A DNA stretch of 32,000 nt from Micromonospora sp. 067-2 (GTDB lineage: Bacteria; Actinomycetota; Actinomycetes; Mycobacteriales; Micromonosporaceae), in NCBI RefSeq assembly GCF_046549295.1, contig NZ_JAJPWB010000014.1, positions 135,495-167,494 on the forward strand, in the 5' to 3' direction. Position numbers and translations under genes: made by a program. The notes below the pieces were generated by a model that saw nothing but the letters and a program-made list of their open reading frames with translations, had not been told where the DNA came from and did no database searches. How positions within the stretch are numbered: the stretch's first letter is position 1; the number at the start of each line of letters is the position of its first letter. Shown here piece after piece: positions 2,435-21,314 of this stretch.

Positions 2435-3608
2435 TCATCGGTTGGGTTCGAAGACGGCGCGTACGCAGCCGTCGAGCTTGTTCTTGAACATGTTGTATCC
2501 CTGTGGCGCCTCGTTCAGTGCCATGGTGTGTGTCGCGAGGTGTTCGGTGACCAGTTCGCCGCGTGCCATCCGTTCGAGCAGCATCGGAATGTAGCGGTGT
2601 CCGTGCTGTTGGGCGCCGCGCAGGGTGAGGCCCTTGTTCATGACCGCCCCGAGCGGGAACTTGTCGATAAGGCCGGCGAAGACGCCGAGCAGGAACACGC
2701 TGCCGCCCTTGCGGCAGTGGTAGATGGCCTCCCGGGCGGCGATCGGGCGGTCCGATTCCAGGCGCAGCTGCTGCTTGACCTGGTCGTACAGATACTGCAG
2801 CCCGGTGCTGTGGGATTCCATCCCCACCGCCTCGATGCACACGTCGGGCCCGCGCCCGCCGCTGCGTTCGATCAGTTCACCGCCGACGTCCTGGGTCTGG
2901 TAGCTGAGCGTCTCCACGCCCAGGTACTTCTCCGCCATCTGCAGCCGATTGGCGTAGCTGTCAATGATGATCACCCGCGCCGCGCCGAGCAGGACCGCCG
3001 CGTGCGGCCATCTGGCCCACCCCGCCCGCGCCCCACACCGCGACAACGTCGCCGGCCTTGACCCCACCGAGGTCCGCGCCCATCCAGCCGGTAGGGGCGG
3101 CATCGGAGGCGAAGAGAGCACGCTCGTCGCTCACCTCGTCGGGGACGGTGAAGGCCCCCTGGTCGGCGTAGGGAACGCGGATGTACTCGGCGTGGCTGCC
3201 CGCGAAGCCGCCGAGTGCGTGGGAGTAGCCGTAGCAGCCGCCGGGTGCGAAACCCCAGAGGTTCTCGGTGATCGCGGGGTTGGTGTTGCCGTTGTCGCAC
3301 AGGGAGTAGTGCTTTTGCTGGCAGTACCAGCAGCGGCCGCAGGAGATGAACGAGCAGACCACCACCCGGTCGCCCACCTTGTGCTTCCGCACCTGCGGGC
3401 CGACCTCGACCACCTCGCCCAGGAACTCGTGCCCCAGCACGTCGCCCCGCTGCATGAATGGGATGTACCCACCCAGCAGGTGCAGGTCGGAGCCGCACGT
3501 CGTCGTCTTGCGCACCCGGATGATGGCGTCCTGCTCGTTGCGCATCGTCGGGTCCGGAACCTCGTTCACCGACAGTTCGTTGACGCCTTGCCACACCAGT
3601 GCCTTCAC
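2435..3608 (-). pseudogene. Zn-dependent alcohol/formaldehyde dehydrogenase (MDR family), interrupted by a frameshift near 3000-3008
   Basis: ORF 2961..3608 (-) carries the catalytic-Zn motif GHEFLGEVVEVG, the structural-Zn cysteines CGRCWYCQQKHYSLC and the start of the Rossmann motif VAVWGAGGVGQMAA. ORF 2435..3121 (-) continues in another frame with HAAVLLGAARVIIIDSYANRLQMAEK...GYNMFKNK. The two frames swap immediately after the QM codons at 3009-3014. Confidence 0.85.
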
Positions 3609-7572: not shown

Positions 7573-8712
7573 ATGACCCGCAGCGAGCGGCACCGGCCGG
7601 AGATCGTCGTCGGACTGGTGGCGACCCCGCCGGATTACCCGGCCCGGGTGGCCGCGCGGCTCACCGCCGAGCTGGCCGGCCGGCTTGCCGATCGGGTGGA
7701 CGCCGACGTGCGGTGGACCGTCCGGGAAGGCTGGGGTGAGGTGGCGCCGCGCCGCGACGGCGGCGTTGAGGCGCTGCTCGATGATCTTGCCCAACGGCGC
7801 GCCGGCGACCGGTGGGACGTCGCAATCTGCCTTACCGACCTGCCGCTGCACACCGAGCGGGCGCCGCTGGTCGCGCAGAGCTCAGCCCGTCGCCGAGTCG
7901 CGGTGGTGTCTCTGCCCGCGCTGGGACTTGGGCAGTTGCGAGCGGCCCGCGTGGCCGTCCCGGATCTGGTGAGCCGACTGCTCACCGACGCTTCCGACCA
8001 GCGGGTGGCGCCGGCCGGCTGGGCACCGGGCGAGATGGCGAGCCGGATTACCGCCATCCACCGTGTGGTTGGCGAGGCCGATGCCGGGGAACTGCGCTAC
8101 GTCGACTCGCGGCTGACCGGCCGGGTGCGGCTGTTGACCGGAATGGTCAAGGCCAACCGCCCGGGGCGTGCTCTGCTGGGCCTGTCCAAGCTGCTGGTCG
8201 GCGCGTTCGGCACGGCCGCGTTCGCGCTCACCACGAGCACCGTCTGGCAGATGGGCGAAGCGCTCGGCGGACTCCGGCTCGCCGTGATCATGATACTCGG
8301 GCTGGCTGCGTTGGTGGCTTGGCTGATCATCGCCCACGACCTGTGGGAGGAACCAGGCCGCGAGACACCGCCTGAGCTGGCCCGGATGTTCAACCTGGGT
8401 ACGATCCTCACCCTCACCCTGGCTACCGCGGTGTCCTACCTGGTTCTGTTCGCCGGAACGGTTCTCGCCGCGGCGCTGCTGATTGACACATCCGTGCTGG
8501 AACAGACCCTGCAGCGCCCAGTCGGTATCACCGACTACCTGACGCTCGCCTGGATCACCAGCTCGCTAGCCACCGTCGGCGGCGCGATCGGCTCCGGGCT
8601 GGAGAACGAGGAAAAGGTACGGGCCGCCGCCTACGGCTACCATCCCGAACCCGGCGGCTGGCGGGACGAGAGCGACGGAATCTCCGTCGGTGAGGACAGG
8701 ACCTCCGGTTGA
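7573..8712 (+). CDS. Conserved hypothetical membrane protein: ~190-aa soluble N-terminal domain plus 4 predicted TM helices
   Basis: 379-aa ORF with strong G/C third-position bias. The N-terminal domain reads EIVVGLVATPP...DVAICLTDLPLHTERAPLVA...VAVVSLPALG. The C-terminal helices are LLVGAFGTAAFALTTSTVW, LAVIMILGLAALVAWLIIA, LGTILTLTLATAVSYLVLFAGTVLAAALLI and LTLAWITSSLATVGGAIG. No family with a known function recognised. Confidence 0.75.
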   Translation: MTRSERHRPEIVVGLVATPPDYPARVAARLTAELAGRLADRVDADVRWTVREGWGEVAPRRDGGVEALLDDLAQRRAGDRWDVAICLTDLPLHTERAPLVAQSSARRRVAVVSLPALGLGQLRAARVAVPDLVSRLLTDASDQRVAPAGWAPGEMASRITAIHRVVGEADAGELRYVDSRLTGRVRLLTGMVKANRPGRALLGLSKLLVGAFGTAAFALTTSTVWQMGEALGGLRLAVIMILGLAALVAWLIIAHDLWEEPGRETPPELARMFNLGTILTLTLATAVSYLVLFAGTVLAAALLIDTSVLEQTLQRPVGITDYLTLAWITSSLATVGGAIGSGLENEEKVRAAAYGYHPEPGGWRDESDGISVGEDRTSG

Positions 8713-9266: not shown

Positions 9267-9674
9267 GTCCCGGAAGGGACCGATTCCCCAGGCACGCGCA
9301 ATTGGTAGCAGAAAGTTTGGCACGTGATCGTAGTCCTTCTCGACAACTGGCCAAAAGACGATATTGCCTTCTGCGTCCCATTCGAATATCGATTGCAGTT
9401 GCTTCGTTCGGCCATCCTTAGTCATGCCGGTAACGGCGATCGCCTCCTTGCGGTCTGGGCGATCTCTGGCTGGCACGATTGCTCGATTCCGAAGATCCTC
9501 GCCAGGCTTGGCGAATGCAACCCACTGCTCTCCCGCAAAAATGAACCCGTTCGCTCCCGCTATGCGGATCTCGTTCGCCAGTCGCTGGAACGCGAGTCGT
9601 TTGGCGTCCTGATCGGAGAATGCAATCGGCAGGTGTGCGACTATGCGGTCATTAATCCAAAAGGTAAGCGAAGG
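9249..9674 (-). pseudogene. Distal segment (~139-141 codons) of the low-GC orphan gene, lacking its own start
   Basis: The track ORF 9249..9476 begins at a GTG, but the same frame stays open upstream to a TGA at 9675-9677 with no ATG/GTG/TTG in between. That upstream stretch reads as protein-like sequence (LTFWINDRIVAHLPIAFSDQDAKRLAFQRLANEIRIAGANGFIFAGEQWVAFAKPGEDL). It is best read as a continuation of 9652..10563 after a frameshift. Confidence 0.55.
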
Positions 9675-10563
9675 TCAGGTGGGATTTATCGACTTTCAAC
9701 ACGTGTTGAGCGGTCTTCAGTAGGTTGGGCAGGCGATCTATCGCGTCACCCGTTCCAACGTCAAATTCTCCTCCGTATTTCTCGAAGGCCATTCGGGTCA
9801 ATTCAGCTGAGTCCCCATCGAAGTCCACACGTGACTCGCGAATTGTTTGTCCCGTTTGCAAATCTACATGTAGTAGACGGTTGTCGTCGGCAGAGTCCAT
9901 GCAGGTCAATGAACTGTGGATGTCGGAGGTCACGCACGCTGTCTGCCGAGCGGGCAGGTTGCAGGCTTCGACTCCCGCCTCTTGGTGGGCCGTATAGATG
10001 ATTTGGCCGATCCGGTCATAGGCGTACGAGGTTGCCTCCAGCAACTCCCACTCTGGCAAAGCGCGGTCGATCCAACGCCGGTTGATTGTGATTGTGCCTG
10101 TTGGCGGTATGGTGTTCGCGACGAGTATGCCCGCGAGGATTTGTCTTGTAGGAAAGCGAGGGGGAAACTGAAGAGTTTTTTCGAATTCATGTGTCCAGTC
10201 GAGTGAGATGCGGACCTTTGCTTCACTGTGGATCTCTAGGTCCGCTTCCTTGACGATCCGATTGCGGGATTTGACAATCCACTTCATCACGGAGTCGTCT
10301 TTTGCGGAATCCTGCCATGCCCCATACCAATGTCGAAAATTGGTAAAGTCGCCTTTCCTCTTTTGAAGGAGCCAGGTGATGTTGCGCAGGTTCTGTATCA
10401 GTGCATTAAGGTTCAGGCGGAACCCATCAGGGCTCATATACGAATCTGCGGTCATGTGCCAGTGTGCATGGCAATCCATGAACCGCCGATGCGCGTCTCT
10501 GATGGGGCAGGGGAGCCGTTGGTCGTCCCCAACTTTCGGCTCGCCTATAGGACCCTCGTGCAT
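9652..10563 (-). CDS. Low-GC orphan protein (303 aa as it now stands), function unknown
   Basis: This is the part of track ORF 9652..11070 (-) downstream of the ATG at 10563 (MHEGPIGEPK). The upstream 169 codons overlap the IS transposase in another frame and are Pro/Ser/Ala shadow sequence. The body is Lys/Asn/Ile/Trp-rich and about 50% GC, unlike every neighbour. No recognisable domain. Confidence 0.7.
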   Translation of the reverse strand: MHEGPIGEPKVGDDQRLPCPIRDAHRRFMDCHAHWHMTADSYMSPDGFRLNLNALIQNLRNITWLLQKRKGDFTNFRHWYGAWQDSAKDDSVMKWIVKSRNRIVKEADLEIHSEAKVRISLDWTHEFEKTLQFPPRFPTRQILAGILVANTIPPTGTITINRRWIDRALPEWELLEATSYAYDRIGQIIYTAHQEAGVEACNLPARQTACVTSDIHSSLTCMDSADDNRLLHVDLQTGQTIRESRVDFDGDSAELTRMAFEKYGGEFDVGTGDAIDRLPNLLKTAQHVLKVDKSHLTFAYLLD

Positions 10564-10687
10564 CGACAAATCATACGTCCACCCGGACTCGCTTAGCAGT
10601 CCCAGGTCCGGGAGGATTGGATTCGGGGCTGGCAGCGACGGCCCCGGCAAGGCTTCCGTCCTGAGAGCGTGTTTGAGATGGGGCTGG

Positions 10688-11368
10688 TCAGGTCCAGGTG
10701 AAGGTGCGGCGGGCTTGGCGTCGGGCGGGTCGACCGCGGGTGATGCGGCGTGCCATGCCGGCGATGGCGGCCCAGCGGATGATGGCTTCGGAGGTCTCGG
10801 GGTGGCGTTCGTAGTCGCGGGCCAGTCGGCGGCATGCGGTGAGCCAGGCCAGAGTGCGTTCGACGACCCAGCGGCGGGGATGCACGGCGAAGCCGCGCTG
10901 GTCGGGGGGCTTGCGGACGATCTCGAGGGTGGTGCGCAGGATGTCGCGGGTCCAGTCGACGAGTCGTCCGGTGAAGCCCTGGTCGGCGAAGACGTGTCGG
11001 ATCGGGGCGGCCATGTAGGCGCCCAGCAGAGCGGTCTTGGCGCCGTCGCGGTCCTGCCAGCTTGCGGCAAGGACGGTCACGGTGACCAGCAGGCCCAAGG
11101 TGTCGGTGACGATGAACCGCTTGCGGCCGTTGACCTTCTTCCCGTCGTCGTAGCCCCGGCTGTCTCGGCCGACGGTGTCAGCGCCCTTCACTGACTGGGA
11201 GTCGATGATTCCCGCCGACGGCTGCGGCTCGCGGCCCTGCTGCACCCGAGCCTTGATACGCAGCGCCGCCAGGAGCTTCTCGGTCACACCGGCGTCTTCC
11301 ACCGGGTGAAGTACCAGTACACCGTCTGCCACGGCGGAAGATCTGCCGGCAGAAACCGCCACGGACAC
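10688..11368 (-). CDS. IS5-family transposase, DDE catalytic ORF (orfB), in the -1 frame relative to orfA
   Basis: IIDSQSVKGADTV...GYDDGKKVNGRKRFIVTDTLGLL...VFADQGFTG...VVERTLAWLTACRRLARDYE are the DDE-domain blocks. A -1 slip after the AAG codon of ...TRWK joins orfA to DAGVTEKLLAAL and yields a protein of normal length. Confidence 0.85.
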   Translation of the reverse strand: MSVAVSAGRSSAVADGVLVLHPVEDAGVTEKLLAALRIKARVQQGREPQPSAGIIDSQSVKGADTVGRDSRGYDDGKKVNGRKRFIVTDTLGLLVTVTVLAASWQDRDGAKTALLGAYMAAPIRHVFADQGFTGRLVDWTRDILRTTLEIVRKPPDQRGFAVHPRRWVVERTLAWLTACRRLARDYERHPETSEAIIRWAAIAGMARRITRGRPARRQARRTFTWT

Positions 11369-11529
11369 CCCGCCCGAACCACGTACAGGATCGCGTTGAC
11401 GATCTCCCGCCGCGGGTGCTTCTCCCGCCGCCCGTCCGTGTTCGGCTCCGGCAGCAGCGCCTCGATCAGCGCCCGCTGAGCATCAGTCAGGTCCGAGTGA
11501 TAACCATGACGAGCAGACACCCGAGCCAC
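11284..11529 (-). CDS. IS5-family transposase, N-terminal ORF (orfA)
   Basis: GYHSDLTDAQRALIEALLP...AILYVVRAGCPWRFLPADLPPWQTVYWYFTRWK is the canonical N-terminal DNA-binding region of IS5/IS427-type transposases. Confidence 0.85.
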   Translation of the reverse strand: MARVSARHGYHSDLTDAQRALIEALLPEPNTDGRREKHPRREIVNAILYVVRAGCPWRFLPADLPPWQTVYWYFTRWKTPV

Positions 11530-11917
11530 CCTGCCCGCTGAAGACCCTCGGCGTCACGCCAACACACCGTCCACAACAGACCTTCTCAAACACGCTTTAA
11601 GGTTCCTGGCGTGGTGGCGCCCTGCGGGCGCCCGGCTTCCCAGAGCAGGAGGTCCGGGTGCGGGCACGGGAGGGGGCCGGGCGGGTCTTCCCGCCTCCGG
11701 AGTCTTACGGCAACAGCGTCTGGGGCGCCGGAGCTCACGTCACGCCGCCGGTGGCGTCCGATGCCATCGACGACATGCGGATCGTGCCACCCGTCTTCAT
11801 GCCACGTCGACTCGAGGAGATTCGTCGGCGGTTCGGCGTTCGGTGACGCTGGTGCGGTTCGGCTCGCCTCTGCTGGCCGTGAGTGATTGACAGGTGACGT
11901 GAATGTGATCCTCATGT

Positions 11918-13792
11918 TTGACTATGGACATGGCGGCGGGGGAAGCGCGGTTGTCGATCGACTGCGGCAGCGCCGGCACCCAAGCCGTCCTGGCGTGCGC
12001 CGACGGCAGCGCACACGTGCTGACATTCGACGGGAATCCACCCCTACACCGCACGCCGCATATGCCCGCCAACGGACAAGCGACGGGGCAACCCGCAGCG
12101 TTCATTCCGGGGCCGCGCCAGCCGGTGGAGGACGCGACAACAGGTGACGCTCGCGGCGACGCGCTGGAGGTGGCGGCGTCGCCGCTGCGCAGGGTCGCCG
12201 CCGAAGCCGAGCGGGTCGTCGGTCAGCCGGTGCGCGATGTGCGGGTGGTAGTCCCTGCGGGGTGGGGGCCTCGGCGGCGGACCTGGATGCGGCAGGTCGC
12301 GCACCGGGCGGGGTTGCCGCAACCGCGTCTGGTGGAGGCCCCGGTGGCGGTCGCCGAGTATCTGCTCACCACTGGTGTGCGGGTGCCGGTCGGTGCGTTC
12401 CTTGTTGTTTGTGACGTCGGCGCGGGCGCGGAGGTGACGGTGCTGCGCCGCGGGCCGGCCGGGTTCGAGGTCCTCGCGACCCTCGCCGACGCCGCGGCTG
12501 GCGGCACGGCAGTCGATCACGCGCTCGCCGACGCCCTCATCGGCGCGTCGACGGGAGAGGGTCAGCGCGCGTCGGTGGCGGACAGCGTTCGGGTGGCCAA
12601 GGAAGCGTTGGTGAGCCATCCGGCTGTCACGGTGCCGCTCCCGGACCGGCCGCCGGTGATTGCGAACAGCGCGATGCTCGACGAGGCCGTCCGGCCGGTG
12701 GCGTGGCGCGTGGCGCAGTTGACGCAGGAAACCGTCGCCGCCGCCGAGCTCACGGTCGGCGACCTCGCCGGTATCTACTGTGTGGGCGGCAGCGCCCAGC
12801 TACCGCACCTAGCGGCGGCGATCGCCGAGCACACAGGCGCCGCACCCGTCGTCGTGCCCGAGCCGGGGCTGGTCGCGGCCCGGGGCGCCGCTGACGTCGG
12901 CGCCGTCGATATCGCGACGGTCGAGCGGGTGGAGGTGCCGGTGCCGCCCGTGCGGCGGGCGGCGGCGATCGCGGTCCCAGGCTTCGCGTCGCTGGCCCTG
13001 ATCTGGCAGTGCCTCCTGACCGCGGAGCGGCACGGGACGCTCGGTGTGTACTACTCGGTGAGTGTGAACTGGGGCGAGTTCACGATGGCGGCGGTGATGG
13101 CCCTGCTGGCGTGCCTGGCCGCGGGCACGGTCCTCGGCTCGCTGATCGCCGCCCGCAGTCCCACCCCCGGCACCCGAACCGAAGGGGGAAGGGTCAGCGT
13201 CGGGATCCTCGCCGCGGTGTCCCTCGGCGCGGCGATCGCTGGCCTGTACGCGGTGGTCACCAGCCAATACTTCGGTGTGCCCGTCGGCCCGTACCTGAAG
13301 TGGGCGCTGTGGCCGATCGCGCCGGTGTCGGTGATGGCCGTGGCGATGGCGGTCGTCGCCGCTCGGCAGTGGCGTGCCCCGCACGGCGGCTGGTCGGCGT
13401 TGCTGGCCGCGCCGACCGGATCCATCGTCGCCGCCACGCTCGGCATGGGGTTGATCCAGTACTCTCTGACCGCCGACCGGTGGCCGGATCGGATCCTGTG
13501 GATCGACATCGCCGGCCGCGTCGGCGGTCTCCTCCTCGGCGTCGCCGTGGTCATGGCAGTGGTGACGCCCCTGATGTTCCGCCTCATCCTCGCCGCCCCG
13601 CTGGCGGTGATCTTCGCGGCGATCGTCAGTAGACGGGCCGCCGGCATGCTCGGCGTCATCTACGCCGTCGCCGTCGCGACTTGGTGGGCTACTCGGCTCT
13701 GGAGCCGTGTCCTGCGCCCCGCCCCACCCGCCCGCACCGCACTGGCCACGGGCCGGGTTCGGGCGGACATGTCACCGGGTGAAGGCGCGTGA
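11918..13792 (+). CDS. Hsp70/actin-fold ATPase domain fused to a C-terminal polytopic membrane domain
   Basis: All five Hsp70-type nucleotide-binding motifs are recognisable in order: LSIDCGSAGTQAV (phosphate 1), VVVPAGWGPRRRTWMRQVAHRAGL, LVEAPVAVAEYL (like NEPTAAALAY), LVVCDVGAGAEVTVL (phosphate 2) and IYCVGGSAQLPHLAAAIAEHTGAAPVVVPEPGLVAARGAA (adenosine motif). From about aa 350 there are ~8 hydrophobic helices and no Hsp70 substrate-binding domain. The start could be the TTG at 11918 or the ATG at 11924 or 11930. Confidence 0.85.
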   Translation: MTMDMAAGEARLSIDCGSAGTQAVLACADGSAHVLTFDGNPPLHRTPHMPANGQATGQPAAFIPGPRQPVEDATTGDARGDALEVAASPLRRVAAEAERVVGQPVRDVRVVVPAGWGPRRRTWMRQVAHRAGLPQPRLVEAPVAVAEYLLTTGVRVPVGAFLVVCDVGAGAEVTVLRRGPAGFEVLATLADAAAGGTAVDHALADALIGASTGEGQRASVADSVRVAKEALVSHPAVTVPLPDRPPVIANSAMLDEAVRPVAWRVAQLTQETVAAAELTVGDLAGIYCVGGSAQLPHLAAAIAEHTGAAPVVVPEPGLVAARGAADVGAVDIATVERVEVPVPPVRRAAAIAVPGFASLALIWQCLLTAERHGTLGVYYSVSVNWGEFTMAAVMALLACLAAGTVLGSLIAARSPTPGTRTEGGRVSVGILAAVSLGAAIAGLYAVVTSQYFGVPVGPYLKWALWPIAPVSVMAVAMAVVAARQWRAPHGGWSALLAAPTGSIVAATLGMGLIQYSLTADRWPDRILWIDIAGRVGGLLLGVAVVMAVVTPLMFRLILAAPLAVIFAAIVSRRAAGMLGVIYAVAVATWWATRLWSRVLRPAPPARTALATGRVRADMSPGEGA

Positions 13793-13793
13793 C

Positions 13794-15893
13794 ATGCGGT
13801 GGCCGCGGCAGCTGATGTCGCTGCTGTTCGTCCTCGCGCTTCTGGTCGGCCCTCCAATAGTGCTGCTGTCACTGGTCGGAGCACCGATACAAGGTTGGCC
13901 GACCGCCGCGCAGGCAGAGGAGTGGGTGCAGAACCCGCTGACCGAACAGACCCTCACCGCCGCGCTGACCATCGCGGCGTGGCTGGTGTGGCTCCTGCTC
14001 GCCTACACGGTCACGATCCGGGTGCTGGCACGCCTGAGCGCGACCGTGTCGTGGCTGCGGCGCATGCCGCTGCCGACGCCCTGGCAAGCCACCGCCGGTG
14101 GCATCGCCGGCGCGGCCGTGTTCGGCGTCAGCTCCCACGCGATCGCCGCACCGCCACCGCCGCCCACGCAGCCGGTAGCGGCAGGAACCCTCTATGAGGC
14201 CGGCAACCTGACGCCATCAGACGGCGACGTCCTAGCCGACGCGGGGATCAGCGTCGCCGGTGGCTGGCTGCCGCGCGACGTGGCGGAGCAGGTCAGCGCG
14301 GCGGCGGCGCTGGTGTGGCTGCGTCGCCGTCGCTCCTACCGGCCCCGCCCGCCCGGTCCGCCGAGCCGCGAGGACTCGGACCTGGCGCCGTTGCCCCCGA
14401 CGGTGGCGGCCGTGCAAGCTGCCCTCGCCAATTCGACGCCACCGCCTACCGAACCCGGCGCCGCCTCGGCGGGCTCGTCGCTGCTCGACCGGCCAACCGT
14501 CGCCGGGGCTTTCCCCCGAGCTGGGGTCGGTCTCACCGGGCTGGGGGCGCAGGACGCGGCGCGAGGCCTGCTCGTCACCAGCCTCCTAGCTGGGCGTCAT
14601 CACCCGGCAGTGTCCGTGGTCGTCACCCGACCTGTCCTGGCCGGGTTGCTCGGCCCCACCGCCGAAACGCTGGGCCCACGCCTACCGAGGCTGGCCGTCA
14701 TCGACAACCTCAGACAGGCAGCGGAGTTCTTTTCCAGAGACCACCCTGGTCGTGGCCTGGGCAGACGAGACCAGGCACACCGTGACACACAGGAGGGCAC
14801 CGGCCAACCCGGACCAACCCTCATCGTCGACGAGGCGTCCGCGACGGACAACGCCGACACCCTGGCGACTCTGGCCATCACCTCCGCCGCGGTGGCCGTG
14901 CTTGGACGGTGGCCGGCCGCCGAAACATGGCAGATCGACCCGTCGGGGCGCACCCACCACCAGGACGGCAGCGGGTTAGCCGGGCTACGGATGTGTGTCC
15001 TTAGCCAGATCACGGCCATTGACCTGCTCACCGTCATCGCCCACCCCGACACGGCGCCGCCAGAGCCTGGTACCTCCGGCCCGTCGCGCAACCCCGCCCT
15101 GGCAGGCCGGACCCCACAGTGGGAGGCCACTGCCCAGGACCACCCCGTCCGCTCAGGCAACGACAAACGACGCGTTCAGCTACGCGTGCTGGGCGAAGCG
15201 ACACTGCTGCTGGACGGCCACCCGGTGGAGATCCGGCGTACCGCCGCGCTCCAAGTCCTCGTGTTCCTCGCCGCCCACCCCGACGGAGCCGACACCCGAC
15301 AGCTGACCCACGCCATCTGGCCGGGCCTGCCCCGCCGCTCTCTCACCGGCCGCCTCTACACCACCCTCAGCGACCTCCGCGCCACCATCCGGTCCACGGC
15401 CGGGGTGACCATCATCGAGCACAGCGACGACCGGTACCGCCTCGACCCCACCGCCGTCACCGTCGACCTGTGGCACTTCCACCACGCGGTCCGCGACGCC
15501 ACCACCACCGTCGCCACCCACGCGACGGCCTGGAAGGCCGTCATCGATGCCTACCCCGGTGACCTCGCCGCCCGACGGACCTGGCCCTGGCTCGACCCGG
15601 TCCGCGAGGCCACCCGCCGGCACGTCATCGACGCACACGCGGCTCTCGCCAGCGCCAGCCCTGACGCCCGTGAGGCCCTGGCATGGCTGCAGGCCGGCAT
15701 CCGCATCGACCCGTACAACGCCGACCTGCACACCCGCGCGGCCAGCGCACTCATCACCCTCGGCGACCACGACGCGGCCGACCACATACGGGAGGGCTAC
15801 ACCCGACGCCTCGCCGCAGCGGGCATACGCCCCACCGACACGGCCGACGGAACAGCCACCCTCAGAGACCAGCCCGGCATCCCCACCCGGTAA
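13794..15893 (+). CDS. Membrane-anchored SARP-type regulator: N-terminal TM helices, Pro/Ala-rich linker, central domain, C-terminal OmpR-like winged helix plus BTAD
   Basis: The ATG at 13794 lies 1 nt after the upstream TGA (13790-13792). The N-terminus has hydrophobic helices LMSLLFVLALLVGPPIVLLSLVG and LTAALTIAAWLVWLLLAYTVTI. The C-terminus reads VQLRVLGEATLLLDGHPVEIRRTAALQVLVFLAAHPDGADTRQLTHAIWP...RYRLDPTAVTVDLWHF (SARP DNA-binding domain). This is followed by AYPGDLAA...WLDPVRE...AWLQAGIRIDPYNADLH (BTAD/TPR-like). Confidence 0.85.
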   Translation: MRWPRQLMSLLFVLALLVGPPIVLLSLVGAPIQGWPTAAQAEEWVQNPLTEQTLTAALTIAAWLVWLLLAYTVTIRVLARLSATVSWLRRMPLPTPWQATAGGIAGAAVFGVSSHAIAAPPPPPTQPVAAGTLYEAGNLTPSDGDVLADAGISVAGGWLPRDVAEQVSAAAALVWLRRRRSYRPRPPGPPSREDSDLAPLPPTVAAVQAALANSTPPPTEPGAASAGSSLLDRPTVAGAFPRAGVGLTGLGAQDAARGLLVTSLLAGRHHPAVSVVVTRPVLAGLLGPTAETLGPRLPRLAVIDNLRQAAEFFSRDHPGRGLGRRDQAHRDTQEGTGQPGPTLIVDEASATDNADTLATLAITSAAVAVLGRWPAAETWQIDPSGRTHHQDGSGLAGLRMCVLSQITAIDLLTVIAHPDTAPPEPGTSGPSRNPALAGRTPQWEATAQDHPVRSGNDKRRVQLRVLGEATLLLDGHPVEIRRTAALQVLVFLAAHPDGADTRQLTHAIWPGLPRRSLTGRLYTTLSDLRATIRSTAGVTIIEHSDDRYRLDPTAVTVDLWHFHHAVRDATTTVATHATAWKAVIDAYPGDLAARRTWPWLDPVREATRRHVIDAHAALASASPDAREALAWLQAGIRIDPYNADLHTRAASALITLGDHDAADHIREGYTRRLAAAGIRPTDTADGTATLRDQPGIPTR

Positions 15894-16095
15894 CGCCGCC
15901 GGCCCCGAGCACGGGCGAACCCGTTCGTGACAGCCCGAACTGTGCTACCCCCATGCGCTTCCGGGAGCACTTCCGCTTTCGGCTGCCTCCGTGCTCGGTC
16001 CCGAACGGCCAGCTCGTCCTGCTAATAGGGGGCGCCACTTGGCCGCAGCAGATGCCGCGGGCCTGTCTCGCTAACGGTGTTTGCGGCGATCTTGG

Positions 16096-16395
16096 TTAGT
16101 AGGTTTCAGCGGCTGGGAAGCGGTCGCTGAAGGTGATGGCGAAGGCGTTCAACGCGGGCTTCCAGCGCATCGTCCATCGGGTTCTTTCTGCTCCGGTGGG
16201 GTCCAACGATCGGGTCACCAGGTACGGACACTTCAACGCGGCCAGCTCGTTGGGGAAGTGGCCGCGGGCTTTCACGCCCCGTCGGTAGCGGGCGTTCAAC
16301 GACTCGATCGCGTTCGTGGAGCAGATGACGGTGCAAATCTCCACGTCGTAGTTCAAGAAGGGGATGAACTCGGCCCAGGCGTTGTCCCACAGGCG
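16096..16395 (-). mobile_element. IS256-family (mutator-type) transposase, C-terminal remnant only
   Basis: RLWDNAWAEFIPFLNYDVEICTVICSTNAIESLNARYRRGVKARGHFPNELAALKCPYLVTRSLDP...RWKPALNAFAITF is the conserved C-terminal ~95 aa of IS256 transposases. Upstream sequence in the same frame is unrelated, so the element is 5'-truncated. Confidence 0.8.
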
Positions 16396-16463
16396 GCGAT
16401 CCCGATGATGTGCACGATGCTGACCGTGGTCGCGGTGATCCGTGACGGGGCATCCGCGGGGGC

Positions 16464-17530: not shown

Positions 17531-17703
17531 CTTCGCTTGGCACGGTGACTGGCCGCGGGTTCGACTACAAGCACGGTCGTTTCAGCCAGCGACGGTCGAC
17601 AGCCGGTGATCCTTGTTGTTCATGACCACGGTTTATCGTCTGCCCTGGCTGGCTGGCTGGCGTCGGGTCGGCGCCGGTGGCCGGGGTGAGGGGAGCGGGC
17701 AGC

Positions 17704-18969
17704 ATGAGCGGACCGTCGGCGGTCTCGGACGCGGGATCGCTTCAGCGTCGGTTGGGTCTGTTCGACGCGGTGGTGATCGGTCTTGGGTCGATGATCGGCG
17801 CGGGGATCTTCGCCGCGTTGGCGCCGGCCGCCGCAGCGGCGGGGTCGGGGTTGCTGGTCGCGTTGGCGGTGGCGGCGGTGGTGGCGTACTGCAACGCCAC
17901 GTCCTCGGCGCGGCTCGCGGCCCGGTATCCCGCGTCCGGCGGCACCTACGTCTACGGCCGTGAGCGCCTCGGTGATTTCTGGGGCTACCTTGCCGGGTGG
18001 GGATTCGTCGTTGGAAAGACCGCCTCGTGCGCGGCGATGGCGTTGACCGTCGGCGTCTACGCCTGGCCCGCGCAGGCTCACGCGGTCGCGGTCGCCGCGG
18101 TGGTGGCGTTGACCGCGGTCAACTACGTCGGGGTGCAGAAGTCCGCGTGGCTGACCCGGGGCATCGTCGCCGTGGTGCTGGTCGTTCTCGCCGCGGTGGT
18201 CACGGCTGGCCTGACCTCCGACGCGGCCCGCCTCGACCGCCTCGACCCTTCCGGTGAGATCACCGCCGGCGGGGTGCTGCAGGCAGCCGGGCTGCTGTTC
18301 TTCGCCTTCGCCGGTTACGCGCGTATCGCCACCCTCGGCGAGGAGATCCGCGATCCGGCCCGCACCATTCCCCGGGCCATCGGTCTCGCGTTGGGTGTCG
18401 CCCTGGCCGTGTACGCGCTGGTCGCCGTCGCCGCCCTCGTCGTTCTCGGTGACCGCCTCGGAGCCAGCGCCGCGCCGCTGGCCGACGCCGTGCGCGCCGC
18501 CGGCTTTGCGGACCTCGCCCCGGTGGTGCGGATCGGGGCAGCCGTGGCGGCGCTCGGGTCGCTGCTGGCGCTGATCCTGGGAGTCTCGCGTACCACCCTG
18601 GCGATGGCCCGCGACCGGCACCTGCCACATGCCTTGGCGGCGGCGCATCCCCGCTTCGGGGTGCCGCATCGCGCCGAGGTGGCCGTCGGTGCGGTGGTCG
18701 CCGTGCTCGCGGCCACTGTCGACGTGCATACCGCGATCGGGTTCTCCTCCTTCGCGGTGCTGCTCTACTACACGATCGCCAACGCCAGCGCCTGGACCCT
18801 CACCACCGCGCAAGGCCGACCACCACGGTTCGTACCCATGCTCGGCCTGGCCGGCTGTCTCGTGCTGGCCATCGCCCTGCCCCCGCGTTCGGTGATCGCC
18901 GGGATCGTCGTGGTCGCAATCGGGGCGCTCATCTACGGCCTACGTCACCTGGCCTGGCGTAGACGCTGA
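17704..18969 (+). CDS. APC-superfamily amino acid permease
   Basis: LGLFDAVVIGLGSMIGAGIFAA..., ARYPASGGTYVYG and about 12 hydrophobic segments. The ATG at 17704 is preceded by GGGGAG and is preferred over the GTG at 17677. Confidence 0.85.
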   Translation: MSGPSAVSDAGSLQRRLGLFDAVVIGLGSMIGAGIFAALAPAAAAAGSGLLVALAVAAVVAYCNATSSARLAARYPASGGTYVYGRERLGDFWGYLAGWGFVVGKTASCAAMALTVGVYAWPAQAHAVAVAAVVALTAVNYVGVQKSAWLTRGIVAVVLVVLAAVVTAGLTSDAARLDRLDPSGEITAGGVLQAAGLLFFAFAGYARIATLGEEIRDPARTIPRAIGLALGVALAVYALVAVAALVVLGDRLGASAAPLADAVRAAGFADLAPVVRIGAAVAALGSLLALILGVSRTTLAMARDRHLPHALAAAHPRFGVPHRAEVAVGAVVAVLAATVDVHTAIGFSSFAVLLYYTIANASAWTLTTAQGRPPRFVPMLGLAGCLVLAIALPPRSVIAGIVVVAIGALIYGLRHLAWRRR

Positions 18970-19238
18970 CCGCGGAATCCGTCCCTACTGACTCGACAGG
19001 CATCGTCGCGGACAGCCGGGTAGGGGGCCCGACGGACCGCAGCTCGGCCGGTCAGCCTGTGCGGCAGGAGCGGGCCACAGCCAGCCCACCGAGGACCGTG
19101 CGATCAGCCCGACCACCAGGGCCACGCAGCGGCGGATGAACGTGACGACGTGTGGGTACGCTGTCCGCTGTTTGCCGCGCTTGTGATCTTTCGAGGTTCG
19201 AGAGGTCACGAGGCGACCGACGTGGGGACGGAGCTGAC

Positions 19239-21314
19239 ATGGGCAGTGGACTGGACGGAAACGCGCGGGCGCGCCGTAGACCTGTCACGGGGCAGAGCCC
19301 TGCTCCGGGCCGAAACAACGCCCAGCGCCCGGACGGGCACTCAACGATGCCCGCCTGCGTTGAGGTGCCCAGCTCACTGCACCCGCCGTCGAAGACGGTG
19401 ACGCGGTGGCTTCTGAAGCACCGCGTGCAGCCGGCGGGCCCGGAGAGCGGCGAGTCACACGCCGCACCGCACGCGTGGTGGAAGGTCATGTGCCTGACCG
19501 GGGTGGACTACTTTTCCACCCTGTCGTACCTGCCGGGAATCGCCGCGCTCGCGGCGGGTGCGCTGTCACCGCTGGCGACGTTGCTGATCGTGGCGTTGAC
19601 GCTGTTCGGGGTGTTGCCGATGTACCGGCGGGTGGCCGGGGAGAGCCCGAACGGGCAGGGGTCGGTGGCGATGCTGGAGCGGCTCCTGCCGTTCTGGAAG
19701 GGCAAGCTGTTCGTCCTGGTGTTGCTGGGGTTCGTGGCCACTTCGTGGATCATCACGATCACTTTGTCGTCGGCGGACGCGACGGTGCACCTGCTGGAGA
19801 ACCCGGTCCTGCCCGACGGCTTTCCGCACGGCACGACCGCGGCGGTGGTGGTGACGGTCGTACTCCTTCTGATTCTGGGCGGGGTGTTCCTGCTCGGGTT
19901 CAACGAGGCCGTCGGCGTGGCCATCCCCCTGGTCGCGATCTTCCTCGGGTTGAACGCGGCGATCGTCGCGGTGGGCGTGGTCGCGATCGCACAGGATCCG
20001 GCGCTGCTGTCCGGGTGGACCGACGCGCTCACCGCCGGCTCCAGCGGCGTCGGCGACGTCATCGGCCCCGCCGTGCTGGCGTTCCCGCTGCTCGTACTCG
20101 GCTTGTCAGGGTTCGAGACGGGTGTCAGCATGATGCCCCTGGTCAAGGGCGACGGTCTCGATGCCGAGCAGCGACTGGCCGCGCGGATCCGCAACACCCG
20201 CAAGCTGCTCACCGTTGCGGCCCTGGTCATGTCCGGCTACCTGATCATGACGACGGTGGTCACCACGGTGCTGATTCCCGCCGAGGCGTTCCAGCCCGGC
20301 GGGGAGGCCAACGGCCGCGCGCTGGCCTACCTGGCCCACGAACGTCTCGGTGAGGGCTTCGGCACGGTCTACGACATCAGCAGCGTGTTGATCCTGTGGT
20401 TCACTGGTGCCTCGGCGATGGCCGGGTTGATCAACATCGTGCCCCGCTACCTGCCGTCCTACGGCATGGCGCCCGAGTGGGGGCGCGCTGTGCGGCCCGT
20501 GGTCATCGTGTACACGCTGATCAGCGTCGCGATCACCGTCGCGTTCGACGCCGACGTCGACGCCCAGGCCGGTGCCTACGCCACCGGGATCCTGGCGATG
20601 ATGGTCTCCGGCGCCGTCGCGGTCACCATTTCCGCGCTGCGCCGCCGCCAGCGCGCCGCCACCGCCGGGTTCGCGCTGCTGACGGCCGTGCTGCTGTACG
20701 CGCTGGCCGAGAACGTGATCGAGAAGCCCGACGGCATCGCCATCTCGGGACTGTTCATCGCCGGCATCGTCACCGTGTCTCTCGTCTCCCGGATCTACCG
20801 CACCACGGAGCTGCGCGCTGAACGCATCGAGTTCGACGACACCGCCCGCCAGTTCATCGCTGACTCCCTCACCCACGACGGCCGGCTGCACCTGATCGCC
20901 AACAAGCGTCAGAGCGGCGCCGCCGAGGAGTACCGGCTCAAGGAACGCGCTCAGCGCGGCATCAACCCCGTCCCGGGCGCCGCCGACGTGCTTTTTCTCG
21001 AAATCGACGTCGTCGACCCCTCCGAGTTCAGCGGAGTCCTGCACGTCACCGGCGCCGACGTCAGCGGTCACCGGATCCTGCGCGCCACCGCTCCCGCCGC
21101 CCCGAATGCCATCGCTGCGATCCTGCTCGCCCTGCGCGACGCCACCGGCGTCCGCCCCCACGCCCACTTCGAATGGTCCGAGGGCAACCCCGTGGCCCAC
21201 CTGCTGCGCTACCTCCTGCTCGGTCGCGGCGACACTCCACCTGTCGTCCGGGAGATCATCCGCAAGGTCGAATCTGACCCCGCCCGCCGACCCGGCATCC
21301 ACGTCGGTGGCTAA
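19239..21314 (+). CDS. Large APC-fold-like permease with a ~220-aa C-terminal soluble domain
   Basis: [30 protein letters not shown] begins a block of about 12 hydrophobic helices. A non-membrane C-terminal domain follows ([32 protein letters not shown]...). The ATG at 19239 is preceded by GGAG; the alternative ATG at 19347 is also possible. Confidence 0.8.

What the first reader, a model, noticed from the sequence alone, without database searches (positions are those of the whole stretch)
11918..15893. Coupled pair: membrane-embedded Hsp70-fold ATPase plus membrane-tethered SARP/BTAD transcription factor
Gene 1 has a complete Hsp70/actin-type nucleotide-binding domain, with all five motifs readable. 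In place of the peptide-binding domain it has about 8 transmembrane helices. Gene 2 starts 1 nt after the stop of gene 1. It begins with TM helices, has a long Pro/Ala-rich linker and an unassigned central domain, and ends in a SARP DNA-binding winged helix plus BTAD. SARPs are normally soluble activators of antibiotic clusters. A DNA-binding domain tethered to the membrane implies regulated release or membrane-proximal DNA binding. The coupled chaperone-like ATPase is an obvious candidate for the sensing or gating component. No kinase, protease or biosynthetic target gene is present in the window. The architecture suggests a kinase-independent transmembrane signalling module whose mechanism, as far as I know, has not been described.
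Basis: partly seen in the sequence, partly recalled or inferred. Interest (0 to 1): 0.7.

Follow-up and report, generated by a model that had tools for sequence, protein, structure and literature searches.

The report
Membrane Hsp70-like ATPase plus tethered SARP
Two translationally coupled Micromonospora genes encode a membrane-embedded Hsp70-type nucleotide-binding protein and a membrane-anchored SARP-like DNA-binding protein; the pair is always found together, has never been characterised, and carries conserved promoter repeats that make its proposed regulatory role directly testable.

Summary
Gene 1 (best start ATG 11930, end 13792) is an Hsp70 nucleotide-binding domain fused to eight transmembrane helices. 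Gene 2 (13794-15893) starts 1 nt after its stop. It has an N-terminal two-helix membrane hairpin, disordered Pro/Ala linkers, an unassigned alpha/beta domain, and a C-terminal winged helix plus BTAD that superposes on EmbR and AfsR.

The ATPase is not "complete". The catalytic Lys70 and Thr199 of DnaK are replaced, and this clade has a 10-residue deletion in a poorly modelled segment.

In 69 of 69 informative loci, all Micromonosporaceae, gene 2 directly follows gene 1. The usual unit has four genes: a LysM-bearing SARP paralogue (g3) and a membrane HTH protein (g4) follow. In this window they are missing, cut off by an IS256 remnant.

Two new cis-elements were found. One is a ~45-bp block upstream of every gene 1 (window 11878-11923). 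The other is four 10-bp-phased TGTNAGG repeats, set exactly 30 bp before a -10-like hexamer, upstream of every g3. Both fit binding of tandem direct repeats by the winged-helix domains and self-regulation of the locus.

Charge distribution places the DNA-binding end in the cytoplasm. No literature, phage, plasmid or defence-model match was found. Gating by the ATPase remains inference.

The parts
11878..11923 (+). Conserved non-coding element directly upstream of gene 1. It contains a (T/C)GTGAG half-site (11878-11883), a -35-like GTGACG (11894-11899), an 18-nt spacer, TG (11915-11916) and TTGACT (11918-11923). The conserved ATG follows 6-7 nt later.
   Evidence: In the 77-sequence alignment A5 the blocks GGGTGACGTGA and TCATGTTTGACT are at least 90% conserved, although the proteins fall to 48% identity. 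The element occurs once per locus and only upstream of g1: 71 of 83 loci match the loose two-block pattern, and it occurs once in the window against 0 expected. There is no Rfam hit and no compensatory base changes, so it is a DNA-level site. The promoter and leaderless reading is inference.
11930..13792 (+). Gene 1 (620 aa; the ORF is open from 11918): an Hsp70-type nucleotide-binding domain fused to a polytopic membrane domain.
   Evidence: The start is set by the conserved ATG column and by NCBI protein WP_410814929.1, 620 aa. dN/dS is 0.17-0.28.
11930..12946 (+). Hsp70/DnaK-like nucleotide-binding domain (residues 5-343 in 624-aa numbering). It ends in a conserved VEVPVPP segment that aligns with the DnaK interdomain linker VLLDVTP.
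   Evidence: Profile against DnaK 2v7y gives E 9e-31, with the alignment shown. Foldseek gives E 1e-12. D15, E140, D166 and G290-G291 are conserved; K70 is Pro66 and T199 is Ala171. Residues 38-80 have low confidence and carry a clade-specific 10-aa deletion.
12947..13714 (+). Eight-helix transmembrane domain that replaces the Hsp70 substrate-binding domain.
   Evidence: AF2 helices span 344-599, supported by hydropathy and loop charges. The domain family has only 148 clusters at 50% identity among 1.84 billion representative proteins. Most full-length members are about 600-700 aa with the domain in the C-terminal half, and all named members are Micromonosporaceae.
13794..15893 (+). Gene 2 (699 aa): a membrane-anchored SARP-like protein, translationally coupled to gene 1 (TGAcATG).
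   Evidence: It is 100% identical to a Micromonospora sp. 067-2 protein that NCBI names an AfsR/SARP family regulator. dN/dS is 0.42-0.55.
13800..14060 (+). N-terminal membrane hairpin (TM1 residues 3-28, TM2 residues 51-89), predicted N-in and C-in.
   Evidence: Hydropathy is 2.35 and 1.84. Mean K+R is 2.0 in the N-tail, 1.6 in the loop (with D+E 2.4) and 4.0 after TM2, across 29 homologues. Helices are seen in the AF2 model.
14061..14510 (+). Pro/Ala-rich, largely disordered tether. It includes two weakly hydrophobic segments (residues 109-127 and 161-176) homologous to the third and fourth TM helices that flank the LysM ectodomain in paralogue g3.
   Evidence: pLDDT is below 50 for residues 88-148 and 214-237. 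Segment hydropathy is 0.07 and 0.78 in g2 against 1.08 and 1.61 in g3.
14511..15038 (+). Central (beta-alpha)5-type alpha/beta domain of unassigned family.
   Evidence: The AF2 model is confident here. No Pfam or PDB sequence match was found even at E 10. The only fold hints are weak: OmpR-family response regulators at E 3e-3 to 2.5e-2, and RadA and EccC at E about 0.06. The Gly-rich loop GxTGxGA has no Walker lysine, and there is no conserved phospho-acceptor Asp.
15174..15833 (+). OmpR-type winged helix (residues 461-555) plus BTAD/TPR-like helical domain (residues 557-680); together these form the SARP module.
   Evidence: Foldseek: EmbR 2ff4 E 5e-7 over 263 columns, and AfsR 8hvr_I TM-score 0.64 normalised to the target. 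Pfam BTAD scores 18.2 bits here, below threshold, but 35.7-46.4 bits in g3 paralogues. The motif R520-L-Y-T-x-x-S-x-L-R529 is invariant.
15894..16058 (+). Remnant of the g2-g3 intergenic region. Synteny with the closest relatives ends here, about 40 bp before the position where they carry the four-repeat array.
   Evidence: blastn: window 11811-16061 matches L001 9860-14139 at 92.6%. The L001 array lies at 14182-14221.
16059..16396 (-). IS256-family (Mutator-type) transposase remnant that replaces g3, g4 and their promoter.
   Evidence: Pfam Transposase_mut, E 4e-12, for the fragment 16096-16356. It is 92% identical to transposase copies in L015 and L016.
10660..11602 (-). IS5-family insertion sequence with 22-nt terminal inverted repeats and a two-ORF transposase. 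It lies 208 nt left of the left synteny break at 11811.
   Evidence: DDE_Tnp_1 and DUF4096 hits. Inverted repeats at 10660-10681 and 11581-11602. Matches are annotated as IS5 family transposase.

Best explanation
This is the conserved two-gene core of a lineage-specific, membrane-based transcription-control cassette of Micromonosporaceae. The full cassette is g1, g2, a LysM-bearing paralogue g3 and a membrane HTH protein g4.

Anatomy. Gene 2 is a membrane-tethered one-component regulator. A two-helix hairpin anchors it, and a long disordered tether hangs an alpha/beta domain, an OmpR-type winged helix and a BTAD in the cytoplasm just under the membrane. The paralogue g3 has the same build with an external LysM domain.

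DNA binding. The winged helices most likely bind as head-to-tail oligomers to 10-bp-phased TGTNAG(G) direct repeats. Four such repeats lie at about -84 to -43 of the g3 promoter. One related half-site lies at the same phase in the gene 1 promoter. From these sites the proteins would activate their own locus while still in the membrane, as ToxR and CadC do.

Role of gene 1. Gene 1 supplies a polytopic membrane partner. Its cytoplasmic Hsp70-type domain probably acts as a nucleotide-binding switch rather than a fast ATPase. It would couple its state, through the retained interdomain linker, to the helix bundle. In that way it would hold or free the hairpins of g2 and g3.

Status in this window. 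Insertion-sequence events have removed g3, g4 and the repeat array, leaving the g1 promoter, g1 and g2 intact.

What is shown and what is inferred. Shown: domain anatomy, strict synteny, the cis-elements and their phasing, and the truncation. Predicted: topology. Inferred: which protein binds the repeats, activation rather than repression, the g1-g2 contact, the signal, and any targets outside the locus.
For: - Anatomy.
- Coupling and synteny: TGAcATG junction. In 69 of 69 loci gene 2 follows gene 1, 27 of them with a 1-nt gap. The three loci without g2 despite downstream sequence have a C-terminally truncated g1.
- Purifying selection on both genes.
- Cytoplasmic location of the DNA-binding end: positive-inside counts in 29 g2 and 51 g3 homologues. 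In g3, LysM (E 1.8e-12) sits between the third and fourth hydrophobic segments, followed by an Arg-rich stretch.
- Invariant recognition-helix motif RLYTxxSxLR.
- Repeat arrays: 46 arrays of at least three TGTNAG units at exact 10-bp spacing occur in 1.59 Mb, against my estimate of about 4e-4 expected by chance. 45 of them lie upstream of a g3-type ORF start and the last lies at a contig end. In 36 of the 40 arrays where a -10-like TA[ACG][CG]GT motif was found, it lies exactly 30 bp after the array.
- Gene 1 promoter block: conserved far beyond synonymous divergence, found only upstream of g1, with a TGTG.G half-site exactly 40 bp before the TTGACT hexamer. This is the same phase as the last repeat at the g3 promoter.
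- The g1 interdomain-linker equivalent V-x-V-P-V-P-P is conserved.
Against: - No experiment exists, and no tool here could model the g1-g2 complex.
- By sequence, the wHTH-BTAD of this protein is sub-threshold.
- The repeats could be bound by g4 or by a host factor.
- The repeat array is absent from the window, and no two-unit site occurs anywhere in it. In this genome region only the single half-site at the g1 promoter remains as a target.
- The proposed -10 of the g1 promoter (TTGACT) lacks the canonical A at position 2, and the consensus scan found no sigma-70-type promoter.
- K70 and T199 are replaced, and the IB-region segment is degenerate. Gene 1 may therefore not cycle nucleotide at all.
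- Neighbourhoods are variable and rich in mobile and conflict-type genes. That also fits non-regulatory roles.
Confidence: 0.45

Rival explanations
1. The cassette is a membrane-associated DNA-handling device of mobile-element ancestry, not a transcription switch. On this view it tethers or moves DNA at the envelope or cross-walls. Several membrane-anchored DNA-binding proteins (g2, g3, g4) and a peptidoglycan-binding LysM would hold DNA at the membrane, with the Hsp70-like protein as the energy or assembly component.
For: Three of the four proteins are membrane proteins with a putative DNA-binding end. UniRef names g4 a DUF2637 domain-containing protein. The central domain gives weak RecA/EccC-like fold hits and has an FtsK-style GxTGxGA loop. 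The loci are multi-copy, sit in variable neighbourhoods and are flanked here by insertion sequences.
Against: No integrase, replication protein, TraB/FtsK translocase or other transfer gene recurs nearby. Nothing was found in the plasmid or viral collections. The Walker lysine is invariably absent. The repeats stand in fixed phase with a -10-like hexamer, which is a promoter feature rather than a transfer-origin feature. The fold hints for the central domain are equally compatible with a receiver-like domain.
Confidence: 0.15
2. The cassette is a biological-conflict module, for anti-phage, anti-competitor or abortive responses. On this view the membrane proteins are sensors or effectors, and the SARP-like end merely switches the module on.
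For: Loci lie among GmrSD_C nucleases, DUF4365, NACHT-type NTPases, NERD-UvrD helicases, Imm1 immunity proteins and transposases. There are one to three diverged copies per genome. Gene 2 evolves fast, with dN/dS about 0.45. Hsp70-domain-only proteins are known in actinobacterial conflict systems (PMC7159879).
Against: No PADLOC model matches g1, g3's core or g4; g2 and g3 give only a weak TPR-model hit. No recognisable toxin or nuclease effector lies inside the conserved unit. None of the recurrent neighbours is found in more than 22 of 83 loci. Within the closest clade the locus is inherited vertically with conserved synteny.
Confidence: 0.15
3. The copy in this window is an orphaned remnant without function. 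It has lost g3, g4 and the repeat array, and sits between insertion-sequence scars.
For: Synteny with the closest relatives is confined to 11811-16061. An IS256 remnant lies at 16059-16396 and an IS5 element at 10660-11602. No g3 or g4 sequence occurs anywhere in the window.
Against: Both ORFs are intact, and the g1 promoter block is identical to that of relatives. dN/dS stays below 1, as in other copies. Seven other loci keep an intact g1-g2 pair with no g3 within 10 kb. A g3-g4 unit could lie elsewhere in the genome, because it travels separately in several genomes.
Confidence: 0.15

Closest known systems
SARP family regulators (AfsR, ActII-ORF4, DnrI, EmbR)
   Same: The OmpR-type winged helix followed directly by a BTAD/TPR-like helical domain is shared. 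The fold superposes on EmbR and on the AfsR SARP module. The recognition helix carries the family-style xLYxxxSxLR motif. The candidate target is a set of phased direct repeats just upstream of the core promoter.
   Different: The module is at the C-terminus, not the N-terminus. It is preceded by a membrane hairpin, a long tether and an unassigned alpha/beta domain. Sequence similarity is marginal. The repeats have a 10-bp period and end near -43. From my own knowledge, SARP boxes are instead heptamers at 11-bp spacing that overlap the -35 region. No biosynthetic cluster is nearby.
ToxR/CadC/TcpP-type membrane-bound OmpR-like one-component regulators
   Same: A winged-helix DNA-binding domain is tethered to the cytoplasmic membrane and would act on promoters without release. 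The CadC DNA-binding domain is among the fold hits (5ju7). CadC is controlled through membrane contacts with the polytopic permease LysP (my own knowledge). That is the closest analogy for a g1-g2 partnership.
   Different: The order is inverted. ToxR-type proteins have an N-terminal wHTH, one TM helix and a periplasmic sensor. Here there is an N-terminal hairpin, almost no external part in g2 (LysM only in g3) and a C-terminal wHTH plus BTAD. The partner here is an Hsp70-fold protein, not a transporter.
OmpR binding sites F1-F3 at ompF (tandem 10-bp half-sites from about -100 to -40)
   Same: Four head-to-tail 10-bp units lie from about -84 to -43 relative to the inferred start of the g3 promoter, in fixed phase with the -10.
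   Different: The comparison rests on my recollection of the OmpR literature. The motif is different, and no phosphorylatable receiver is evident in g2 or g3.
Canonical and atypical Hsp70s (DnaK, HscA, HscC, EutJ-like NBD proteins)
   Same: The nucleotide-binding domain aligns end to end with DnaK. This includes the phosphate-1, phosphate-2 and adenosine motifs and a linker-like segment.
   Different: There is no substrate-binding domain or lid; eight TM helices take their place. K70 and T199 are replaced, and the segment equivalent to DnaK residues 45-60 is deleted or degenerate in this clade. I know of no described Hsp70 with an integral membrane domain, and searches found none.

Membership tests
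Hsp70 (PF00012) chaperones | Actin-fold nucleotide-binding domain with phosphate-1, phosphate-2 and adenosine motifs | tested here: met
   Pfam HSP70 scores 60.4 bits against a cut-off of 20.6. The profile against DnaK gives E 9e-31 over the whole NBD. Foldseek gives E 1e-12. D15, D166, E140 and G290-G291 are conserved.
Hsp70 (PF00012) chaperones | Catalytic Lys70 and Thr199 (DnaK numbering) needed for efficient ATP hydrolysis | tested here: not met
   K70 aligns with the invariant Pro66, and T199 with Ala171, which is conserved in at least 90% of homologues.
Hsp70 (PF00012) chaperones | C-terminal beta-sandwich substrate-binding domain and helical lid | tested here: not met
   The Pfam and NCBIfam matches stop at about residue 330. 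Residues 344-599 form eight TM helices.
SARP (OmpR-type wHTH + BTAD) regulators | OmpR/PhoB-type winged-helix DNA-binding domain | tested here: met
   This holds at the fold level only. Foldseek matches EmbR, AfsR, PhoB, CadC and RstA DNA-binding domains. Pfam Trans_reg_C was not detected in g2 and scored E 0.063 in g3.
SARP (OmpR-type wHTH + BTAD) regulators | BTAD (PF03704) directly after the wHTH | tested here: inconclusive
   This protein scores 18.2 bits, below the 22.1 cut-off. About a quarter of listed homologues carry PF03704, and g3 paralogues score 35.7-46.4 bits. The fold match to EmbR and AfsR covers the BTAD.
SARP (OmpR-type wHTH + BTAD) regulators | Binding to phased direct repeats at target promoters and activation of transcription | not testable with these tools
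   Candidate sites were found, but the identity of the binding protein and the effect on transcription need EMSA, footprinting and reporter assays.
ToxR/CadC-like membrane one-component regulators | N-terminal cytoplasmic wHTH, a single TM helix and a C-terminal periplasmic sensor | tested here: not met
   The domain order is reversed, and the anchor is a two-helix hairpin. The resemblance is functional only.
P-loop (FtsK/RecA-like) NTPases or CheY-like receiver domains (central domain of gene 2) | Walker A lysine and Walker B acid, or a phospho-acceptor Asp pocket | tested here: not met
   Invariant positions are G-x-G-A...R-G. There is no lysine and no conserved Asp at the end of beta-3. No Pfam or PDB sequence hit was found. 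Fold hits are weak and split between the two classes.
Known anti-phage defence systems (PADLOC-DB) | Match to a defence-protein model | tested here: not met
   There is no hit for g1 or g4, and only a weak TPR-model hit for g2 and g3.

The most novel reading that the evidence does not exclude
This would be a previously undescribed mode of transmembrane signalling. An Hsp70-fold nucleotide switch is built into the membrane, with its substrate-binding domain replaced by eight helices. It would gate membrane-tethered SARP/OmpR-type activators. One of these (g3) reads the cell wall through LysM. The output would be direct activation of promoters that carry 10-bp-phased repeats. The pathway would need no kinase, phosphorelay, anti-sigma factor or proteolysis.
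Probability: 0.25. Interest if true: 0.8.

Novelty: new variant of a known kind. Interest (0 to 1): 0.62.

Why it matters
Three points would matter if the model holds.

- **Reach of the SARP family.** SARPs are the main pathway-level switches of antibiotic production in actinomycetes and are regarded as soluble proteins. A membrane-anchored branch with its own conserved operator would extend what the family can sense, for example envelope or peptidoglycan cues.
- **A new use of the Hsp70 fold.** An Hsp70 nucleotide-binding domain fused to a polytopic membrane domain, with the interdomain linker kept, would be a new use of one of the best-studied allosteric machines.
- **Testability.** The system is compact, multi-copy and confined to Micromonosporaceae, a major producer lineage that includes Salinispora. 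The cis-elements found here give an immediate handle: defined DNA probes, defined promoters and a predicted leaderless start.

Tried and rejected
- **RNA element upstream of gene 1.** The candidate 7-bp hairpin shows no compensatory change, the RNAalifold consensus energy is about 0, and there is no Rfam family. Rejected in favour of a DNA site.
- **Generic sigma-70 promoter.** The consensus scan found none.
- **Phage or plasmid origin.** No viral-contig relatives, and no plasmid match by DNA or protein. PHROGs gave only an Hsp70-like family and LysM hits.
- **Defence-system membership.** PADLOC was negative.
- **Rosetta-stone fusion of g1 and g2.** The 840-aa protein P0333 matches both, but it is an out-of-frame read-through containing nonsense sequence. 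It is not evidence of a fusion.
- **A conserved third partner beyond g3 and g4.** All-against-all clustering of 883 neighbouring ORFs found only clade-limited neighbours: a secreted GmrSD_C nuclease, DUF6745, Imm1, a RecD-like helicase and a permease.
- **Repeat-array targets elsewhere in the window.** None found.
- **Literature.** Six searches returned nothing on this pair.

Full report
**Source and gene calls.** The window comes from a Micromonospora genome. Gene 2 is 100% identical to a protein of Micromonospora sp. 067-2. Gene 1 is that strain's 620-aa "Hsp70 family protein", WP_410814929.1. Both ORFs are present as described and have coding-type GC3 of 0.86 and 0.83. The junction reads TGA-C-ATG, so gene 2 starts one nucleotide after the stop of gene 1. 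Across 77 distinct homologous loci the conserved start codon aligns with ATG 11930, not with TTG 11918.

**Gene 1.**
- Pfam HSP70 scores E 1.3e-16, and NCBIfam HscA and DnaK models match residues about 80-330.
- A 33-member family profile aligns with the DnaK nucleotide-binding domain end to end (2v7y, E 9e-31).
- The AF2 model (pLDDT 72) superposes on DnaK NBDs (Foldseek E 1e-12).
- Conserved residues include the phosphate-1 Asp (D15), the E171 equivalent (E140), the phosphate-2 Asp (D166) and the adenosine GG motif.
- DnaK Lys70 aligns with an invariant Pro, and Thr199 with an Ala that is conserved in at least 90% of homologues.
- The whole clade at or above 88% identity, including this copy, has a 10-residue deletion in the segment equivalent to DnaK residues 45-60. 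Residues 38-80 are modelled with pLDDT below 50.
- A V-x-V-P-V-P-P segment aligns with the DnaK interdomain linker.
- Eight helices (residues 344-599) then replace the substrate-binding domain. Loop charges fit an N-in, C-in topology.
- The membrane domain is rare: 148 clusters at 50% identity among 1.84 billion representatives. Most full-length members are about 600-700 aa, with the domain in the C-terminal half. Distant full-length members that were tested still hit HSP70.
- All named members belong to Micromonosporaceae: Micromonospora, Salinispora, Plantactinospora, Polymorphospora, Actinoplanes, Dactylosporangium, Virgisporangium and Solwaraspora.

**Gene 2.** The AF2 model (pLDDT 67) shows these parts in order:
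- two long helices (residues 3-28 and 51-89);
- a disordered tether;
- a confident (beta-alpha)5 domain (240-415);
- a winged helix (461-555);
- a helical BTAD (557-680).

The C-terminal 260 residues match EmbR (E 5e-7) and the AfsR SARP module (TM-score 0.64 normalised to the target). Sequence evidence alone is thin. BTAD scores 18.2 bits against a 22.1 cut-off, and a family profile finds only TPR-like PDB matches. However, many homologues and the paralogue pass the BTAD threshold, and the recognition-helix motif RLYTxxSxLR is invariant.

The central domain has no family by sequence. Its weak fold hits are split between response-regulator receivers and RecA/EccC-type cores. Neither a Walker lysine nor a phospho-acceptor Asp is conserved. 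It stays unassigned.

**Topology.**
- In 29 g2 homologues the N-tail and the stretch after TM2 are Arg-rich (mean K+R 2.0 and 4.0, with almost no acidic residues). The inter-helix loop is net acidic. This indicates N-in and C-in.
- The paralogue g3 carries a LysM domain (E 1.8e-12). It lies between two further hydrophobic segments and is followed by an RRRR stretch. This fixes g3's C-terminal module in the cytoplasm.
- The homologous segments in g2 are only weakly hydrophobic. Whether g2 has two or four TM helices, the wHTH-BTAD is inside.

**Co-occurrence and the larger unit.**
- A scan of GTDB species genomes returned 80 loci.
- Every one of the 69 loci with an intact g1 and at least 2.3 kb downstream has g2 immediately after it. 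27 of them have the 1-nt gap.
- The three loci that lack g2 despite downstream sequence have a truncated g1.
- 51 of 59 loci also carry g3 within 10 kb. g3 is about 940 aa, LysM-bearing, and 29% identical to g2 over 490 residues.
- 23 of 59 loci carry g4, a roughly 430-aa membrane protein with a C-terminal HTH-like end, which UniRef names DUF2637.
- Nothing else is consistently linked.

**State of the window copy.** Similarity of the window to its closest relatives (about 92% nucleotide identity) runs only from 11811 to 16061. On the right an IS256-family remnant begins at 16059. An IS5 element with inverted repeats at 10660 and 11602 lies 208 nt beyond the left break. The window therefore holds a truncated cassette.

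(a) *Upstream of gene 1.* Directly upstream of g1 in essentially all loci lies a block of about 45 bp: cTGTG.GT..TT.acgGGTGACGTGAatGtGATCcTCATGTTTGACT.
- Its two cores are at least 90% conserved, even between loci whose proteins are under 50% identical.
- It occurs once per locus and only there.
- It shows no RNA covariation.
- It can be read as a promoter: a -35-like GTGACG, an 18-bp spacer, and a TGn-extended TTGACT. The conserved ATG follows 6-7 nt later with no conserved Shine-Dalgarno sequence, which suggests a leaderless mRNA. This reading is inference, and the hexamer is non-canonical.

(b) *Upstream of g3.* Every g3 is preceded by an array of usually four exact 10-bp-period direct repeats, (c/g)TGTgAGGtc.
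- 46 such arrays occur in 1.59 Mb, against my estimate of about 4e-4 expected by chance.
- 45 of them lie upstream of a g3-type ORF start, and the last lies at a contig end.
- In 36 of the 40 arrays where a -10-like TA[ACG][CG]GT motif was found, it lies exactly 30 bp after the array.
- The units therefore start at about -52, -62, -72 and -82.
- The half-site in the g1 promoter block sits in the same phase, 40 bp before its hexamer.
- Phased head-to-tail repeats next to a promoter that lacks a -35 are the classic site type for OmpR/PhoB/SARP winged helices (my own knowledge).

This is the best available evidence that g2 and g3 are genuine DNA-binding regulators acting at least on their own locus. 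The array is missing from the window: synteny ends about 40 bp before its position. No two-unit site occurs elsewhere in the window.

**Selection and context.**
- dN/dS is 0.17-0.28 for g1 and 0.42-0.55 for g2 across comparisons with dS from 0.11 to 0.89.
- Genomes hold one to three diverged copies.
- Neighbourhoods are variable and include nucleases, NTPases, helicases, immunity proteins and transposases.
- There are no PADLOC, viral or plasmid matches.
- Six literature searches found no description of the pair. The nearest item is the mention of Hsp70-domain-only proteins in actinobacterial GTPase-centred conflict systems, which is a different architecture (PMC7159879).

**Verdict.** It also gains support from the cis-elements. 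But the claimed complete ATPase is doubtful, the pair is a truncated part of a larger unit, and the proposed gating role of gene 1 is untested. I rate the finding a new variant of a known kind (a membrane-bound winged-helix one-component regulator), with a partner protein that has no described counterpart.

Noticed in passing
L001:14169-14225 (also L062:14083-14122 and 44 other arrays in related loci); absent from the window: Four exact 10-bp-period direct repeats, (c/g)TGTgAGGtc, lie upstream of every LysM-SARP paralogue gene (g3). In 36 of the 40 arrays where a -10-like TA[ACG][CG]GT motif was found, it lies exactly 30 bp after the array. This looks like an activator-dependent promoter with OmpR-type site geometry.
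   Followed up: yes
window 11878-11923: This non-coding block upstream of gene 1 is conserved across Micromonosporaceae far beyond the coding sequence. It occurs once per locus and has no RNA covariation. There is no conserved Shine-Dalgarno sequence before the conserved ATG at 11930, which suggests a leaderless transcript.
   Followed up: yes
window 16059-16396 and 10660-11602: An IS256-family transposase remnant lies right of the pair, and a complete IS5-family element with 22-nt inverted repeats and a two-ORF transposase lies to its left. Similarity of the window to its closest relatives is confined to 11811-16061.
   Followed up: yes
window 9652-10560 (-): This gene has low GC (about 58-60% against about 69% for the window). 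It matches phage family phrog_19262 (unknown function, E 6e-18) but no Pfam or NCBIfam model. It lies next to the IS5 element and is probably foreign DNA.
   Followed up: partly
window 12047-12157 (gene 1 residues 44-80): A 10-residue deletion and sequence divergence occur in the NBD segment equivalent to DnaK residues 45-60. All homologues at or above 88% identity share it. More distant copies keep the VWTGQQAWQA segment.
   Followed up: partly
L001:17403-18722; L003:16966-18252: The fourth gene of the full unit (g4, about 430 aa) has N-terminal TM helices, an acidic linker and a C-terminal HTH-like end. UniRef names the Salinispora copy a DUF2637 domain-containing protein. My Pfam and NCBIfam scans gave no hit.
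   Followed up: partly
proteins P0068 (788 aa, M. globbae) and P0380 (1031 aa, Dactylosporangium): These are variant architectures of gene 1. P0068 has an N-terminal DUF5954 fused in front of the NBD. P0380 has a degenerate NBD, an extra TM helix and a C-terminal extension of about 400 residues.
   Followed up: no
window 2435-3608 (-): The ADH_N and ADH_zinc_N halves of a zinc alcohol dehydrogenase lie in two overlapping ORFs in different frames. This is a likely frameshift or pseudogene.
   Followed up: no
window 19152-21314 (+) and 7573-8712 (+): A 720-aa and a 379-aa ORF have high GC3 but no significant match in Pfam, NCBIfam or PADLOC; the 720-aa ORF also has none in PHROGs.
   Followed up: no
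window 17677-18969 (+): An amino-acid permease gene of the same family recurs near the g1-g2 pair in seven other loci (cluster c7). Its position and orientation vary, so this is probably a conserved chromosomal neighbourhood rather than a functional link.
   Followed up: partly
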